Positions 51,822 to 60,715 of a stretch of 64,000 nt of DNA are shown here, one piece after another. Positions within the stretch are counted from its first letter, which is position 1, and each line of letters begins with the position of its first letter. The notes below the pieces were generated by a model. The model was not told where the DNA came from, made no database searches, and worked only from the letters and a program-made list of their open reading frames with translations. The position numbers and the translations under genes were made by a program. Source of the stretch: Escherichia coli (GTDB lineage: Bacteria; Pseudomonadota; Gammaproteobacteria; Enterobacterales; Enterobacteriaceae); the NCBI RefSeq assembly GCF_044324785.1, contig NZ_CP172127.1. One strand, given 5' to 3'.

Positions 51822-54521
51822 ATGCGTAAATATCCTTTAAGTTTACTGAAGGATAAAAATATTGTGACTTTTTTTGATTTCTGGGGAAAAACCCGACGCG
51901 GCGAGAAAGACGGGGGCGACGACTATCACCTTCTTTGCTGGCATTCGCTGGATGTAGCCGCGATGGGCTATTTAATGGTTAAAAGCAATTGCTTCGGGCT
52001 GGCTGACTATTTTCGTCAACTAGGTTTCGCTGATACGGAGCAGGCAGCACAATTTTTCGCCTGGCTATTGTGCTGGCACGATACTGGAAAATTTGCCCGC
52101 TCTTTTCAGCAACTTTACCTGCACCCGCAACTCAAGGTTCCGGAAAGCTCTAGAAAAAATTACGAAAAAATCTCTCATTCAACGCTGGGTTACTGGTTGT
52201 GGCACCATTATTTAAGTGAATGCGAAGAATTGCTTCCTGCATCTTCACTCTCTCCGCGCAAGCTCAAACGGGTAATAGATATGTGGATGCCCATAACTAC
52301 CGGGCATCATGGTCGGCCTCCTGACCGTATGGATGAACTGGACAACTTTCTGCCTGAAGACAAAGCTGCCGCACGAGATTTTCTCCTTGCAATCAAGGCA
52401 CTGTTTCCGCTCATAGAGATCCCCACATTCTGGGATGATGACGAGGGCGTTGAACTCATAAAACAACTTTCCTGGTATATCTCTGCAACCGTCGTACTCG
52501 CAGACTGGACGGGATCGTCAGCGCGATTTTTTCCACGCGTCGCGCAGGCAATGGATATTGAAGATTACTGGCAGAAGGCTTTAGTTCAGGCTCAAAACGC
52601 ATTAACCGTCTTTCCTCCAAAAGCACAAACCGCGCCTTTCACCGGAATTAATACGCTGTTTCCTTTTATTGAGCACTCGACACCGTTACAGCAAAAGGTG
52701 CTGGATCTGGATATCAGCCAGCCTGGGCCACAGTTATTTATTCTGGAGGATGTGACTGGCGCAGGTAAAACAGAAGCGGCGCTTATCCTGGCCCACAGGT
52801 TGATGGCTGCGGGGAAAGCACAGGGTTTGTTTTTTGGCCTGCCAACAATGGCAACGGCCAATGCCATGTACGATCGGCTGGTCAAAACCTGGCTTGCTTT
52901 CTATTCGCCACAATCCCGCCCCAGCCTGGTGCTGGCACACAGTGCCCGCACATTAATGGATCGCTTTAATGAATCACTCTGGTCCGGTGATTTAGTCGGG
53001 TCAGAAGAACCGGATGAACAAACGTTCAGTCAGGGATGTGCGGCCTGGTTTGCCGACAGTAACAAGAAGGCGTTGCTGGCTGAAATTGGCGTCGGCACTT
53101 TGGATCAGGCGATGATGGCGGTGATGCCGTTCAAACATAATAATCTGCGGCTTCTGGGGCTGAGTAATAAAATCCTGCTGGCTGATGAGATCCACGCCTG
53201 TGACGCTTACATGTCATGCATTCTTGAAGGGCTGATCGAGCGGCAGGCGCGTGGCGGAAACAGCGTCATTTTGCTTTCTGCCACGTTATCTCAACAGCAG
53301 CGCGACAAACTCGTTGCTGCCTTTGCGCGTGGTACAGAGGGCCAGCAAGAAGCTCCGTTCCTGGAAAAGGATGATTACCCCTGGCTGACGCACGTTACGA
53401 AATCCGATGTGCATTCACACCGGGTAGCGACGCGCAAAGACGTTGAGCGTAGCGTGAGCGTGGGTTGGCTTCATAGCGAACAAGAATGTATTGCGCGTAT
53501 CGAATCGGCAGTAAGTCAGGGGAAATGCATCGCCTGGATCCGGAATTCTGTCGATGACGCTATTAAGGTTTATCGTCAGTTGCTTGCCCGCGGCGTCATT
53601 CCTGCTTCCAGCCTTTCTCTGTTTCATAGCCGCTTTGCTTTTAGCGATCGCCAGCGAATTGAAACGGAAACGCTGGCACGCTTCGGTAAAAGTTGTAGTT
53701 TACAGAGATCATCGCAAGTCATTGTTTGTACACAAGTAATTGAACAAAGTGTGGATATTGACCTGGACGAAATGATATCCGACCTGGCCCCTGTTGATTT
53801 GCTGATCCAACGGGCGGGGCGATTACAGCGGCATATCCGCGATATTAATGGTCAGTTAAAGCGTGACGGAAAAGACGAGCGTTCCCCTCCTGAATTGCTG
53901 ATTCTGGCCCCCGTCTGGGACGACGCTCCAGGTGACGAATGGTTCGGCAGTGCCATGCGTAACAGTGCATATGTCTATCCCGATCATGGACGAATCTGGC
54001 TGACGCAGCGTGTACTGCGTGAGCAAGGCGCTATTCAAATGCCACACGCAGCCCGCCTTCTTATTGAATCAGTCTACGGTGAGGACGTGGTAATGCCGGA
54101 AGGATTTGCCCGCAGCGAGCAGGAACAAGTGGGCAAATATTACTGCGATCGCGCAATGGCTAAAAAGTTTGTGCTGAACTTCAGGCCCGGCTATGCCGCC
54201 AATATCAACGATTACCTCCCGGAAAAACTGTCGACACGTCTGTCTGAGGAGTCTGTTTCCCTGTGGCTGTCTACCTGTATTGCCGGTGTGGTAAAGCCTT
54301 ATGCCAACGGTGCTCACGCATGGGAAATGAGCGTTGTCAGAGTGCGTCGAAGCTGGTGGAAAAAACATCGCGATGAGTTTTCTTTACTGGAAGGGGATGC
54401 GTTCAGACAGTGGTGCGTTGAACAGCGGCAAGATCCGGAGATGGCAAATGTGATTTTAGTTACCGATGACGAAAGTTGCGGGTATTCGGCTACGGAGGGA
54501 TTGATAGGTAAGGTTGATTGA
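51822..54521 (+). CDS. cas3: Cas3 helicase-nuclease (type I-E)
   Basis: 899-aa ORF with HD nuclease N-terminal region (HSLDVA...), DEAD-like helicase Walker A (EDVTGAGKTEAA) and DExH box (LLADEIHACD); an alternative GTG start at 51864 is possible. Confidence 0.93.
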   Translation: MRKYPLSLLKDKNIVTFFDFWGKTRRGEKDGGDDYHLLCWHSLDVAAMGYLMVKSNCFGLADYFRQLGFADTEQAAQFFAWLLCWHDTGKFARSFQQLYLHPQLKVPESSRKNYEKISHSTLGYWLWHHYLSECEELLPASSLSPRKLKRVIDMWMPITTGHHGRPPDRMDELDNFLPEDKAAARDFLLAIKALFPLIEIPTFWDDDEGVELIKQLSWYISATVVLADWTGSSARFFPRVAQAMDIEDYWQKALVQAQNALTVFPPKAQTAPFTGINTLFPFIEHSTPLQQKVLDLDISQPGPQLFILEDVTGAGKTEAALILAHRLMAAGKAQGLFFGLPTMATANAMYDRLVKTWLAFYSPQSRPSLVLAHSARTLMDRFNESLWSGDLVGSEEPDEQTFSQGCAAWFADSNKKALLAEIGVGTLDQAMMAVMPFKHNNLRLLGLSNKILLADEIHACDAYMSCILEGLIERQARGGNSVILLSATLSQQQRDKLVAAFARGTEGQQEAPFLEKDDYPWLTHVTKSDVHSHRVATRKDVERSVSVGWLHSEQECIARIESAVSQGKCIAWIRNSVDDAIKVYRQLLARGVIPASSLSLFHSRFAFSDRQRIETETLARFGKSCSLQRSSQVIVCTQVIEQSVDIDLDEMISDLAPVDLLIQRAGRLQRHIRDINGQLKRDGKDERSPPELLILAPVWDDAPGDEWFGSAMRNSAYVYPDHGRIWLTQRVLREQGAIQMPHAARLLIESVYGEDVVMPEGFARSEQEQVGKYYCDRAMAKKFVLNFRPGYAANINDYLPEKLSTRLSEESVSLWLSTCIAGVVKPYANGAHAWEMSVVRVRRSWWKKHRDEFSLLEGDAFRQWCVEQRQDPEMANVILVTDDESCGYSATEGLIGKVD

Positions 54522-54547
54522 GATGCCCTGGCGTCGGATGACGCCAG

Positions 54548-54576
54548 GGCTTATCCCCGCTGACGCGGGGAACAGG
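54548..54576 (-). repeat. Solitary CRISPR-repeat-like sequence in inverted orientation downstream of cas3
   Basis: Minus-strand reading cctgttccccgcgtcagcggggataagcc matches the array repeat at 25 of 27 aligned positions; immediately preceded by a second perfect hairpin gccctggcgtc-ggat-gacgccagggc (54525-54550). Confidence 0.8.
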
Positions 54577-59505: not shown

Positions 59506-60425
59506 CGTTTGTACCGCTGAGCCCGATCCCATTAAAAGATCGCACTTCCATGATCTTCCTCCAGTACGGTCAAATCGACGTACTGGACGGCGCTTTCGTG
59601 CTGATCGACAAAACCGGGATCCGCACGCATATTCCAGTGGGATCGGTCGCCTGCATTATGCTCGAACCGGGAACAAGAGTTTCCCACGCGGCAGTCCATC
59701 TGGCCGCCACGGTGGGGACGCTACTGGTCTGGGTCGGTGAAGCGGGTGTTCGCGTCTACTCTTCCGGACAACCCGGTGGGGCGCGTGCTGATAAGTTACT
59801 CTACCAGGCAATGCTGGCTTTAACGGAAGATCTACGCCTGAAGGTGGTGCGCAAAATGTATGAATTACGTTTTCGTGAGCCACCGCCAGCTCGCCGTTCA
59901 GTGGAGCAGCTACGGGGAATTGAGGGATCCCGCGTTCGCCAGACCTATGCATTACTGGCGAAACAATATGGTGTGAAATGGAATGGTCGCAAATACGATC
60001 CTAAAGACTGGGAAAAAGGCGATGTTGTCAATCGCTGCATCAGTGCTGCCACATCATGCCTGTACGGTATTTCTGAAGCGGCAGTATTAGCTGCGGGATA
60101 TGCGCCCGCTATTGGTTTTATCCATAGTGGCAAACCGCTTTCATTTGTTTACGACATAGCCGATATCATTAAATTTGATTCGGTTGTACCAAAGGCATTT
60201 GAAATAGCGGCGAGGCAACCCGCAGAACCTGATAAAGAAGTCAGGTTGGCTTGTCGCGATATTTTCCGTAGCTCTAAGTTAACGGGCAAATTAATTCCGT
60301 TAATTGAGGAAGTGCTTGCCGCAGGTGAAATTGAACCACCACAACCCGCGCCGGATATGTTACCGCCAGCCATCCCCGAACCTGAAACGTTGGGCGATAG
60401 CGGTCATCGAGGACGCGGCGGATGA
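59502..60425 (+). CDS. cas1: Cas1 integrase
   Basis: Start at GTG 59502 overlapping the cas6e stop; (M)[47 protein letters not shown]..., about 90% identical to K-12 Cas1 as recalled; 307 aa. Confidence 0.93.
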
Positions 60426-60715
60426 GTATGATCGTAGTTGTAACGGAAAATGTTCCTCCACGTTTACGTGGACGGCTCGCTATCTGGCTATTGGAAGTGC
60501 GTGCCGGTGTGTATGTCGGAGATACATCCAAACGTATTCGGGAGATGATCTGGCAGCAAATCTCTCAACTGGCAGGTTGCGGAAATGTAGTGATGGCTTG
60601 GGCGACCAATACCGAGTCAGGTTTTGAATTTCAGACCTGGGGTGAAAATAGACGTATTCCGGTGGATTTGGATGGGTTGCGTTTGGTTTCTTTTCTTCCT
60701 GTTGATAATCAATAA
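60422..60715 (+). CDS. cas2: Cas2
   Basis: 97-aa [37 protein letters not shown]...; ATGA overlap with cas1. Confidence 0.93.

What the first reader, a model, noticed from the sequence alone, without database searches (positions are those of the whole stretch)
51822..60715. cas operon is a divergent type I-E variant embedded in K-12-like flanks
Flanking genes (cysJIH, iap, cysDN, eno, relA, fuc) read as near-identical to the K-12 proteins I can recall. Cas3, Cse1, Cse2, Cas7, Cas5 and Cas6e here differ substantially from the K-12 sequences I recall (for example Cas3 K-12 begins MEPFKYICHYWGKSS..., here ...FFDFWGKTRRGEKDGGDDYHLLCWHSLDVAAM...), while Cas1 and Cas2 stay close to the K-12 versions. 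This fits allelic replacement of the interference module with conservation of the adaptation module. The breakpoints would fall near the hok-like locus and near the cas6e/cas1 junction.
Basis: partly seen in the sequence, partly recalled or inferred. Interest (0 to 1): 0.4.

Follow-up and report, generated by a model that had tools for sequence, protein, structure and literature searches.

The report
Common E. coli CRISPR-Cas variant, not K-12's
This stretch carries the more common of the two known versions of the E. coli type I-E CRISPR-Cas operon (the non-K-12 "E1" version), a dimorphism documented since 2010-2014, and here the copy is probably disabled by a premature stop codon in cas7.

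Summary
Against K-12, Cas3, Cse1, Cse2, Cas7, Cas5 and Cas6e are 20-36% identical (Cse2 gives no BLAST hit). Cas1 and Cas2 are 85-86% identical, and the flanking proteins 98-100%.

This is the published "cas-E1" variant. It occurs in about 2,600-2,700 of 5,426 complete E. coli genomes, against about 1,200 for the K-12 "E2" type. The evidence points to K-12 as the lineage that was replaced.

The exchanged unit is the whole cassette. The left junction is exact, at the hok start codon (51477). [quoted passage not shown] In cas1 and cas2 the synonymous sites are saturated (pS 0.82 and 0.74, against dS 0.08-0.19 in the flanks). Leader and repeat type also differ from K-12.

Cas1e is 75-95% identical across 80 gammaproteobacterial loci, so 85% to K-12 is ordinary conservation for this family.

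Other features:
- cas7 has an in-frame TAA at codon 83.
- A CreR-like mini-array lies in the cas3-cse1 spacer region, with a PAM-flanked partial target.
- Deeper in type I-E history, interference modules do appear to swap against taxon-tracking cas1-cas2 and repeats.

The finding as stated is already known.

The parts
51333..51490 (+). sok/hok regulatory RNA region (Rfam RF01794)
   Evidence: 111.7 bits against a gathering score of 59. K-12 keeps this side only, annotated as sokX.
51475..51627 (+). Intact 50-aa hok-family toxin ORF. The left junction of the exchanged cassette falls at 51477/51478.
   Evidence: Hok family hits, below the equivalog cut-offs. K-12 identity ends right after the hok ATG. 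The same ORF is annotated as a pseudogene in strain 06-00048.
51822..54521 (+). cas3 (899 aa, HD nuclease plus helicase), E1 variant
   Evidence: TIGR01587 and TIGR01596 pass their cut-offs, while the K-12-type equivalog NF007248 scores 420 against a cut-off of 569; 28% identical to K-12 and 98.3% to strain 06-00048.
54547..54634 (-). CreR-like mini-array: psiR1 54634-54609, spacer-like 54607-54576, psiR2 54575-54547
   Evidence: psiR2 is CTGTTCCCCGCGTCAGCGGGGATAAGCCC, which matches the array repeat with at most 6 substitutions. psiR1 is degenerate but retains ATTAACCA where the 5' handle would be. Spacing is 61 nt.
54683..54717 (+). Predicted target of the mini-array spacer: PAM AAG at 54683-54685, then 17 nt of pairing at 54686-54702
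   Evidence: the only mismatches fall at spacer positions 6 and 12; analogous spacer/target pairs, with different sequences, occur in K. spallanzanii L008 and Tenebrionibacter L057.
54951..56513 (+). cse1/cas8e (520 aa)
   Evidence: TIGR02547 scores 609.7 bits against a cut-off of 70; 20.5% identical to K-12 CasA and 97.5% to 06-00048.
56510..57046 (+). cse2/cas11e (178 aa)
   Evidence: TIGR02548 passes; no BLAST hit to K-12 CasB, 99.4% identical to 06-00048.
57061..58116 (+). cas7e, interrupted by an in-frame TAA at 57307-57309 (codon 83, GAA in 06-00048)
   Evidence: With the stop replaced by Glu, the protein passes TIGR01869 at 445 bits. The exact 82-aa truncated product is on record on 140 contigs. 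Locus L083 is 100% identical to the window over 6.2 kb.
58127..58873 (+). cas5e (248 aa)
   Evidence: TIGR01868 passes; 34% identical to K-12, 100% to 06-00048.
58855..59505 (+). cas6e (216 aa)
   Evidence: TIGR01907 passes; 27% identical to K-12, 99.1% to 06-00048.
59502..60425 (+). cas1e (307 aa)
   Evidence: TIGR03638 passes; 84.7% aa identity to K-12; pS 0.82, dN 0.134; 96% identical to Salmonella diarizonae.
60422..60715 (+). cas2e (97 aa)
   Evidence: TIGR01873 passes; 85.7% aa identity to K-12; pS 0.74.
60716..60811 (+). CRISPR leader, E1/L1 type
   Evidence: identical to the leader of 06-00048 and different from the 105-nt K-12 leader.
60812..61451 (+). CRISPR array: 11 repeats (GTGTTCCCCGCGCCAGCGGGGATAAACCG) and 10 spacers
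   Evidence: no spacer is shared with K-12 or 06-00048. K-12 repeats start GAG, except its last one.
61452..61512 (+). Conserved terminal spacer plus degenerate repeat next to iap, shared with K-12. Backbone homology resumes here (right junction region ~61423-61451).
   Evidence: tail sequences of the window and K-12 align. This matches the description in Almendros 2014.

Best explanation
The window carries the ordinary majority allele ("cas-E1") of the E. coli type I-E CRISPR-Cas cassette at the cysH-iap site. It looks divergent only because K-12 carries the other allele ("cas-E2").

The two alleles differ as whole cassettes: hok, cas3, the Cascade genes, cas1-cas2, the leader and most of the array. 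They were exchanged by recombination anchored on the left at the sok/hok locus and on the right inside the CRISPR array.

Cas1 and Cas2 look 'K-12-like' because Cas1e and Cas2e are under very strong purifying selection throughout this type I-E clade. They were not left in place during the exchange.

How the system would work (established type I-E knowledge, not tested here):
1. Cas6e cuts the array transcript into crRNAs.
2. Cse1, Cse2, Cas7, Cas5 and Cas6e assemble on the crRNA as Cascade.
3. Cascade finds AAG-flanked targets and recruits Cas3.
4. Cas1-Cas2 adds new spacers at the leader end.
5. A CreR-like mini-array in the cas3-cse1 spacer region probably guides Cascade to a partial target there and so auto-represses the operon (inferred).

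In this strain the cas7 stop at codon 83 should abolish Cascade. That would remove interference, priming and the auto-repression loop (inferred).
For: **Identity and composition**
- dS is 0.08-0.19 in the flanks, against saturated synonymous sites in all eight cas genes. GC3 is 40-57% here and 36-43% in K-12.

**Junctions**
- The left junction is at 51477.
- The leader and repeat type differ from K-12. K-12 keeps one GTG-type last repeat, plus the same terminal spacer and degenerate repeat.

**Relatives**
- The window is colinear over 19 kb with E. coli 06-00048, with Cas proteins 97.5-100% identical.
- Close E1-type cassettes (Cas7 at least 84% identical) are flanked by both cysH and iap in Salmonella diarizonae, Intestinirhabdus alba, Citrobacter sedlakii, C. 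youngae, Klebsiella grimontii and Phytobacter ursingii. The E. albertii, Pseudocitrobacter and K. spallanzanii contigs show iap only. Escherichia sp. MOD1-EC7003 and K. indica show cysH only.
- In these loci Cas1 and Cascade identities fall together.

**Population counts in 5,426 complete genomes**
- E1 cas7 in 2,594 and E1 cas1-cas2 in 2,732.
- E2 cas3-casE in 1,187 and E2 cas1-cas2 in 1,222.
- No intermediate identity band was seen.

**Cas1 conservation**
- Cas1e is 75-95% identical in 80 loci, out to Marinomonas, Methylophaga and Parasutterella.

**Family assignment**
- All eight proteins pass the type I-E NCBIfam cut-offs.

**Literature**
- PMC3903273, PMC2886076, and PMC12736100, which has the same gene lengths and Cas1 84% / Cas2 86%.

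**Mini-array**
-. Precedent: PMC10120712 and bioRxiv 10.1101/2023.03.10.532045.
Against: - Linkage of cas1-cas2 type with Cascade type was inferred from matching genome counts. It was not read genome by genome, so rare hybrid operons are not excluded.
- Because synonymous sites are saturated, dS cannot show whether cas1-cas2 of E1 and E2 split at the same time as the interference genes.
- The Cas1-2 tree places K-12 with loci whose Cascade belongs to the other family. So the E2 cassette may itself be a chimera, and part of the contrast may be due to module exchange rather than rate alone.
- No expression or activity data were available. Read-through or a downstream restart in cas7 was not tested.
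- The mini-array's promoter was not identified.
Confidence: 0.9

Rival explanations
1. Only the interference module (cas3 to cas6e) was replaced in this lineage. cas1-cas2 remained as K-12-type backbone, and the right breakpoint is at the cas6e/cas1 junction.
For: - Protein identity jumps from 27% (Cas6e) to 85% (Cas1) exactly at that junction.
- Detectable nucleotide similarity to K-12 starts about 20 nt inside cas1, at 59523.
Against: - cas1-cas2 share only 70-73% of nucleotides with K-12, with pS 0.82 and 0.74, while the backbone has dS 0.08-0.19.
- Leader and repeat type also differ, and true backbone homology resumes only at the array's last unit.
- Cas1 of Pectobacterium or Dickeya is as close to the window (83-84%) as K-12's is.
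- Similarity starting near the cas1 start codon is also seen between unrelated loci, simply because cas1 is conserved.
- Touchon & Rocha 2010 concluded that the entire cas group was co-transferred.
Confidence: 0.04
2. Chimeric-cassette model, an addition to the best explanation rather than a replacement. The contrast between Cas1/Cas2 and the rest is partly historical. The K-12-type cassette joins an interference module of a second deep type I-E family (F2) to an Enterobacteriaceae-type adaptation unit. Such swaps have recurred in several genera, because both interference families use the same repeat.
For: - K-12 Cas1 is 91-95% identical to loci whose Cas3 and Cascade belong to the window's family: UBA5654, Enterobacter sp., Pluralibacter, C. 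portucalensis, Raoultella and others. It is only 78-86% identical to Cas1 of loci that share K-12's Cascade family.
- 5 of 13 F2 loci have their nearest Cas1+Cas2 in an F1 locus of the same genus or family, with bootstrap at least 0.98.
- Within-genus pairs show Cas1 at 91-95% beside Cas7 at 32-37%: Marinomonas, Oceanospirillum, Methylophaga and Citrobacter.
- The two Methylophaga loci share a KilA-N gene between cas6e and cas1, at 81% nucleotide identity.
- Repeat sequence follows the host taxon, not the Cascade family.
Against: - The trees are neighbour-joining on BLAST-derived fragments. There was no model-based test and no outgroup.
- The 80 loci were chosen by Cas1 peptide patterns.
- Third-position identity in the discordant pairs is only modestly above saturation (43-58%).
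- Leader comparison was uninformative.
- The direction of transfer is unknown.
Confidence: 0.55
3. Divergence in place. The interference genes diverged rapidly at this site, for example in an arms race with anti-CRISPR proteins, with no horizontal replacement.
For: dN is far higher in cas3 and the Cascade genes (0.74-1.07) than in cas1-cas2 (0.13).
Against: - Synonymous sites are saturated, while the adjacent cysH and iap have dS below 0.2.
- GC3 differs by 10-16 points in cas3 and the Cascade genes.
- The population is strictly bimodal.
- Each allele has closer relatives in other genera than in the other E. coli allele.
- Sharp junctions and a hok deletion scar are present.
Confidence: 0.01

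Closest known systems
E. coli cas-E1 variant of the type I-E system (Almendros et al. 2014, mBio, PMC3903273). It is called 'var. B-8552' in PMC12736100. O157:H7 TW14359 carries it.
   Same: - Same iap-cysH location, with hok/sok upstream.
- Identical gene lengths: 2700, 1563, 537, 1056, 747, 651, 924 and 294 bp.
- Per-gene GC close to that paper's values (46-55% here, 48-55% there).
- GTG-type repeats and the E1-type leader.
- Cas proteins 97.5-100% identical to an E1 strain.
   Different: - cas7 carries a premature TAA at codon 83.
- The spacer content is unique.
- There are mosaic patches of 87-96% identity against strain 06-00048 in cas3, cse1 and the 3' part of cas7.
E. coli K-12 MG1655 type I-E system (cas-E2; cas3-casABCDE-cas1-cas2)
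   Same: - Same subtype, gene order and chromosomal slot.
- A 29-nt repeat that differs by 1 nt.
- The same terminal spacer and degenerate repeat next to iap.
- A degenerate mini-array at the same position after cas3.
   Different: - Cas3 and the Cascade proteins are only 20-36% identical, and Cse2 is not alignable by BLAST.
- Cas1 and Cas2 are 85-86% identical, with saturated synonymous sites.
- The cas genes are 45.6% GC in K-12 against 51.2% here.
- K-12 lacks the hok ORF and has a different leader.
Salmonella enterica type I-E system at cysH-iap
   Same: - Same site, in synteny.
- Same repeat.
- Same cassette lineage: Cas1 96%, Cas2 94%, Cas7 85%, Cas3 70% in S. diarizonae.
- A CreR mini-array was shown experimentally for a S. 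enterica type I-E locus.
   Different: - It is species-level diverged.
- The S. diarizonae locus examined has only about 18 nt between cas3 and cse1, and no repeat-like element was detected there.
CreR / cr-like regulatory mini-arrays of type I systems (Shmakov et al. 2023, PMC10120712; Liu et al. 2023, bioRxiv 10.1101/2023.03.10.532045)
   Same: - Two degenerate repeats flank a spacer-like sequence between cas3 and cas8e.
- The element is antisense to cas3.
- The spacer partly matches an AAG-flanked site in the same intergenic region.
   Different: - Nothing here was tested for transcription or repression.
- The target lies about 265 nt upstream of the cse1 ATG, against about 140 bp in the Salmonella case.
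- The loop cannot operate if Cas7 is truncated.

Membership tests
Type I-E CRISPR-Cas | Signature large subunit Cse1/Cas8e and small subunit Cse2/Cas11e | tested here: met
   TIGR02547 scores 609.7 bits (cut-off 70.05) and TIGR02548 scores 104.3 bits (cut-off 28.5).
Type I-E CRISPR-Cas | Cas7e, Cas5e and Cas6e family proteins | tested here: met
   TIGR01869 scores 445 bits, TIGR01868 scores 159.6 and TIGR01907 scores 287.8. All are above their cut-offs. Cas7 was scored with the stop codon replaced by Glu.
Type I-E CRISPR-Cas | Single Cas3 with an HD nuclease and a helicase core | tested here: met
   TIGR01596 (HD) scores 87.8 bits (cut-off 43.45) and TIGR01587 (core) scores 225.7 bits (cut-off 102.45).
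Type I-E CRISPR-Cas | Cas1e and Cas2e | tested here: met
   TIGR03638 scores 379.5 bits (cut-off 215.6) and TIGR01873 scores 132.5 bits (cut-off 33.15).
Type I-E CRISPR-Cas | Gene order cas3-cse1-cse2-cas7-cas5-cas6e-cas1-cas2, followed by leader and an array of 29-nt repeats with 32-33-nt spacers | tested here: met
Type I-E CRISPR-Cas | All effector genes intact, so the system is functionally competent | tested here: not met
   in-frame TAA at 57307-57309, cas7 codon 83 of 351. The allele is real and is seen on 140 contigs.
E. coli cas-E1 variant (Almendros 2014) | Located between cysH and iap, with hok/sok between cysH and cas3 | tested here: met
   The paper states that hok/sok is present in all strains except those with E2.
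E. coli cas-E1 variant (Almendros 2014) | Cas proteins near-identical to E1 reference strains; gene lengths and GC as published for the non-K-12 variant | tested here: met
   97.5-100% identical to 06-00048; gene lengths match the PMC12736100 table exactly. Per-gene GC is 46-55% here against 48-55% in that table.
E. coli cas-E1 variant (Almendros 2014) | L1-type leader linked to the E1 genes | tested here: met
   the 96-nt leader is identical to that of E1 strain 06-00048 and differs from the K-12 leader. The published logo itself could not be compared.
K-12-type type I-E (cas-E2) | Cas3 and CasA matching the K-12-trained equivalog models | tested here: not met
   NF007248 scores 420 against a cut-off of 569, and NF007247 scores 104 against 576; 20-36% identity.
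K-12-type type I-E (cas-E2) | GAG-type repeats and the 105-nt L2 leader | tested here: not met
   all 11 repeats start GTG, and the leader is 96 nt and different.
CreR / cr-like regulatory mini-array | Two repeat-like sequences flanking a spacer-like sequence in the cas3-cas8e intergenic region | tested here: met
   psiR2 has at most 6 substitutions against the array repeat. psiR1 is degenerate but keeps the 5'-handle end. The period is 61 nt. I estimate about 1.5e-4 such single-repeat matches by chance in the whole window (my own calculation).
CreR / cr-like regulatory mini-array | Partial, seed-proximal complementarity to a PAM-flanked site near the effector promoter | tested here: met
   AAG PAM plus 17 nt, with mismatches only at positions 6 and 12; covarying spacer/target pairs in two other genera.
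CreR / cr-like regulatory mini-array | The element is transcribed, processed by Cas6e, and represses the cas promoter through Cascade | not testable with these tools
   Needs RNA-seq or northern blots and reporter assays.

The most novel reading that the evidence does not exclude
The E. coli E1/E2 dimorphism may be one visible case of a wider pattern in gammaproteobacterial type I-E systems. At least two anciently diverged, mutually compatible interference modules (Cas3 plus Cascade, about 25-35% identical) have been swapped repeatedly. The adaptation unit (cas1-cas2, leader, repeat) evolves slowly and tracks the host taxon. Swapping would be possible because both module families read the same repeat. 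On this reading the K-12 reference cassette is itself a chimera of an F2 interference module and an Enterobacteriaceae-type adaptation unit.
Probability: 0.5. Interest if true: 0.4.

Novelty: already known. Interest (0 to 1): 0.15.

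Why it matters
For this window it matters little. The result places the strain among the majority of cas-bearing E. coli and shows that its Cascade is probably dead.

The practical reminder is one Almendros et al. already made: K-12, the experimental model for type I-E, carries the minority cassette. Cas3 and Cascade of most E. coli are only 20-36% identical to the proteins studied.

The broader comparison suggests why Cas1 and Cas2 look 'shared'. Cas1e is extremely constrained (96% amino-acid identity to Salmonella despite saturated synonymous sites), and interference modules may be exchangeable parts. 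If confirmed, that would be useful for understanding how CRISPR systems escape anti-CRISPR proteins while keeping their spacer memory.

Tried and rejected
- **Is the window outside E. coli?** The best 10.5-kb match was only 96.3%. Rejected: the shortfall comes from unique spacers and mosaic patches, and the flank matches strain N3 at 98.7%.
- **Using the point where nucleotide similarity to K-12 begins as a breakpoint marker.** Rejected: similarity begins at or within ~20 nt of the cas1 start in every pair of loci, simply because cas1 is conserved.
- **Leader comparison, to see whether the K-12 leader groups with 'E3' enterobacterial leaders.** Uninformative: identities were 0.56-0.79 with no clear grouping.
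- **Frequency of the cas7 stop in complete genomes.** No exact match to either TAA-bearing 64-mer was found. This shows absence of those exact alleles only.
- **A target for the K-12 mini-array spacer.** None was found with a seed run of at least 9 nt in its intergenic region.
- **The automatic mini-array/target scan on loci with two inverted repeats about 50 nt apart.** It gave artefacts in Pectobacterium, Pluralibacter and Pantoea, because the assumed 32-nt spacer overlapped a repeat. Those rows were discarded.
- **Literature search for within-I-E discordance between Cas1 and Cas7.** Nothing relevant was found. The general principle of module shuffling is established.
- **Naming trap.** 'I-E2' in the 2025 classification (an HNH-Cas5 variant) is not Almendros' 'E2'.

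Full report
**What is there.**
Window 51822-60715 is a complete, co-oriented type I-E operon:
- cas3 51822-54521
- cse1 54951-56513
- cse2 56510-57046
- cas7 57061-58116
- cas5 58127-58873
- cas6e 58855-59505
- cas1 59502-60425
- cas2 60422-60715

A 96-nt leader follows, then an array of 11 repeats and 10 spacers (60812-61451). Upstream lie cysJIH and a sok/hok locus (Rfam sok at 51333-51490; a 50-aa Hok-family ORF at 51475-51627). Downstream lie iap and cysD. All eight Cas proteins pass NCBI's curated type I-E family cut-offs. The two models trained on K-12 Cas3 and CasA do not reach theirs.

**Checking the observation.**
I fetched K-12 MG1655 and ran tblastn of its proteins against the window.

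| Protein | Identity to K-12 |
|---|---|
| Cas3 | 28% |
| CasA | 20.5% |
| CasB | no hit |
| CasC | 29% |
| CasD | 34% |
| CasE | 27% |
| Cas1 | 84.7% |
| Cas2 | 85.7% |
| CysJ, CysI, CysH, QueD, Iap, CysD | 98-100% |

**Where the breakpoints are.**
- **Left.** K-12 aligns at 96.7% from 42790 to 51477 and then stops. A three-way alignment shows that identity ends immediately after the hok ATG. K-12 keeps the sok side (annotated sokX) but has lost the hok ORF.
- **Right.** cas1-cas2 align to K-12 at only about 70% nucleotide identity. The leaders differ: 96 nt here, identical to strain 06-00048, against 105 nt in K-12. All window repeats start GTG and K-12 repeats start GAG. The exception is K-12's last repeat, which is GTG-type and is followed in both genomes by the same terminal spacer and degenerate repeat next to iap. 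[quoted passage not shown]

**Are cas1-cas2 'retained'?**
I computed Nei-Gojobori estimates.
- Flanking genes have dS 0.08-0.19 against K-12.
- All eight cas genes are saturated at synonymous sites, including cas1 (pS 0.82) and cas2 (pS 0.74).
- The difference lies in dN: 0.13 for cas1 and cas2, against 0.74-1.07 for cas3 and the Cascade genes.
- Overall cas GC is 51.2% here and 45.6% in K-12, with GC3 about 10-16 points higher here in cas3 and the Cascade genes.

So cas1-cas2 are not K-12-type backbone. They belong to a different, anciently separated cassette and are simply under much stronger constraint.

**How conserved is Cas1e in general?**
A scan of one genome per species retrieved 80 loci encoding Cas1e relatives. 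Cas1 is 75-95% identical to the window's in all of them, including Marinomonas, Methylophaga, Shewanella and Parasutterella. Pectobacterium and Dickeya Cas1 (83-84%) are as close to the window as K-12's is. Against Salmonella diarizonae, Cas1 is 96% identical while third codon positions are only 43% identical. An 85% match to K-12 is thus the family's normal level and not a sign of shared ancestry at this locus.

**Which allele is the odd one?**
- The window is colinear over 19 kb with E. coli 06-00048, with Cas proteins 97.5-100% identical.
- The apparent 96.3% identity of the best E. coli match comes from unique spacers and a few mosaic patches.
- Among 5,426 complete E. coli genomes, the window-type cas7 segment is in 2,594 and window-type cas1-cas2 in 2,732. 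K-12-type cas3-casE is in 1,187 and K-12-type cas1-cas2 in 1,222.
- Identity is bimodal, and the counts for the two halves of each cassette match closely.
- Close relatives of the E1 cassette lie between cysH and iap in Salmonella diarizonae, Intestinirhabdus alba, Citrobacter sedlakii, C. youngae, Klebsiella grimontii and Phytobacter ursingii. On the shorter contigs only one flank is visible: iap in E. albertii, Pseudocitrobacter and K. spallanzanii, and cysH in Escherichia sp. MOD1-EC7003 and K. indica. In all of them Cas1 and Cascade identities fall together.
- K-12 carries the scars: a truncated hok and a leftover GTG-type terminal repeat.

The evidence therefore points to K-12 as the replaced lineage.

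**Literature.**
- Almendros et al. 2014 define the variants E1 and E2, with GC 53.5% against 45.6%. They report that hok/sok is absent only from E2 strains, that the leaders L1 and L2 are linked to the gene variants, and that the E2 module integrated at the CRISPR array. [quoted passage not shown]
- Touchon & Rocha 2010 inferred co-transfer of the entire cas group, by recombination at flanking sequences such as the CRISPR.
- A 2025 survey tabulates the same gene lengths (2700, 1563, 537, 1056, 747, 651, 924, 294 bp) and the same identities (Cas1 84%, Cas2 86%, the others 23-32% or none).

The finding is therefore already known. The part of the interpretation that departs from the literature, exchange of the interference module only, is the part my tests contradict.

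**A deeper layer.**
- Neighbour-joining trees and pairwise tables show that Cas7, like Cas3 and the other Cascade proteins, splits into two deep families. F1 includes the window's E1 and a more distant enterobacterial group. F2 includes K-12.
- Cas1+Cas2 group by host taxon instead. K-12 Cas1 is 91-95% identical to loci with F1-type Cascade (UBA5654, Enterobacter sp., Pluralibacter, C. portucalensis, Raoultella and others). It is only 78-86% identical to Cas1 of F2-type loci.
- Five of 13 F2 loci have their nearest Cas1+Cas2 in an F1 locus of the same genus or family, with bootstrap at least 0.98.
- Pairs within Marinomonas, Oceanospirillum, Methylophaga and Citrobacter show Cas1 at 91-95% beside Cas7 at 32-37%.
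- The two Methylophaga loci share a KilA-N gene between cas6e and cas1.
- The repeat sequence follows the taxon, not the Cascade family.

This suggests recurrent interference-module swaps, made possible because both families use the same repeat. It also suggests that the K-12 cassette is itself a chimera. It rests on distance trees and a biased sample, and it fits the general principle of module shuffling. I give it about 0.5.

**State of this copy.**
cas7 has an in-frame TAA at 57307-57309 (codon 83, GAA in 06-00048). It is not a read error. The exact 82-aa product is on record on 140 contigs, and one assembly is 100% identical to the window over 6.2 kb. The same stop also occurs in a cas background about 5% divergent. 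Neither exact allele is present in the complete-genome set. Without the Cas7 backbone, Cascade should not assemble, so interference and priming are probably lost (inference).

**An extra element inside the finding's coordinates.**
- The AT-rich cas3-cse1 intergenic region holds a mini-array on the minus strand, at 54634-54547. It consists of a degenerate repeat, a spacer-like sequence of 32 nt, and a well-preserved repeat.
- Its spacer matches a site on the plus strand at 54686-54702, preceded by the type I-E PAM AAG. The pairing is 17 nt, with mismatches only at positions 6 and 12. From established knowledge of type I-E Cascade, those positions do not pair.
- Klebsiella spallanzanii and Tenebrionibacter have the same arrangement with different, mutually matching spacer/target pairs.
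- K-12 has its own degenerate mini-array at the same place.
- This matches the CreR / cr-like RNA auto-repression elements described for type I-E in 2023. Function here is inferred, not shown.

**Verdict.**
The feature is real but already described, and the copy in this window is probably non-functional for interference.

Noticed in passing
window 57307-57309 (cas7 codon 83); L083, L084: An in-frame TAA truncates Cas7 to 82 aa. The exact product is on 140 public contigs, and one assembly is 100% identical to the window. The same stop at the same codon also occurs in a cas background about 5% divergent (L084, different neighbouring codon), so it is either recurrent or has been moved by recombination. 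Neither exact allele is in the 5,426 complete genomes.
   Followed up: yes
window 54547-54634 (-) and 54683-54717 (+): A CreR-like mini-array (two degenerate repeats and a spacer) lies just after cas3. Its spacer pairs over 17 nt, with mismatches only at positions 6 and 12, to an AAG-flanked site in the same intergenic region. Covarying equivalents occur in K. spallanzanii (L008) and Tenebrionibacter (L057). K-12 has its own degenerate copy.
   Followed up: yes
window 61391-61422 (oldest variable spacer): This spacer matches phage P1/P7/SJ46 gene upf94.2, and about 100 plasmid records, at 32 of 32 positions. The 3 nt upstream of the protospacer in P7 are CTG rather than the canonical AAG.
   Followed up: partly
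window 34200-34777 and 35281-35370: A second type I-E array lies about 17 kb upstream of the cas operon. It has 8 perfect GTG-type repeats, then 2 degenerate GAG-type repeats, and a separate pair of degenerate repeats about 500 nt further on. It is probably the CRISPR-II array that the literature places between ygcE and ygcF, but I did not check its flanking genes. Spacers were not analysed.
   Followed up: no
window 61533-62570 (iap): iap here is K-12-like (dS 0.084) but far from strain 06-00048 (dS 0.45, 96.2% aa), while the adjacent cas5-cas2 genes are nearly identical to 06-00048. This is a recombination mosaic at the array/iap boundary.
   Followed up: partly
window 55250-55999 and 57750-57999: Patches of 87-96% identity to 06-00048 lie inside otherwise 99-100% identical cas genes (cse1 and the 3' part of cas7). 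This fits the intra-E1 recombination at the Cascade genes reported by Almendros et al.
   Followed up: partly
window 51475-51627: The hok-family ORF is intact here (50 aa), but is annotated as a pseudogene with an internal stop in strain 06-00048.
   Followed up: partly
L003 (JAEWTL010000035.1) and L076 (JAIJJM010000114.1): Metagenome-assembled genomes labelled Bacillota and Collinsella carry E. coli-type E1 cas genes on short contigs, mostly 94-100% identical (Cse2 86% in L076). This looks like binning contamination in species-representative genomes.
   Followed up: no
L016, L027, L030, L037 (Enterobacteriaceae loci; cysH flank seen in L016, L027 and L030): A third kind of type I-E cassette (Cas7 about 56-58% identical to the window's) has cas3 inverted relative to the Cascade genes. 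L016, L027 and L037 carry one or two inverted repeat-like sequences upstream of cse1. L016 and L030 sit between cysH and iap, so that slot has been refilled several times in Enterobacteriaceae.
   Followed up: partly
L049 9502-9990 and L055 9130-9990 (Methylophaga): A KilA-N domain gene sits between cas6e and cas1 in two Methylophaga loci whose interference modules belong to different deep families. The gene and cas1-cas2 are shared at 76-81% nucleotide identity.
   Followed up: partly
window 51822-56513 (annotation note): The NCBIfam 'equivalog' models NF007248 (Cas3) and NF007247 (CasA) are tuned to the K-12 variant. They score far below their cut-offs on the majority E. coli variant. This may be why the same Cas3 is variously named Cas3 or Cas3' in RefSeq.
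   Followed up: no
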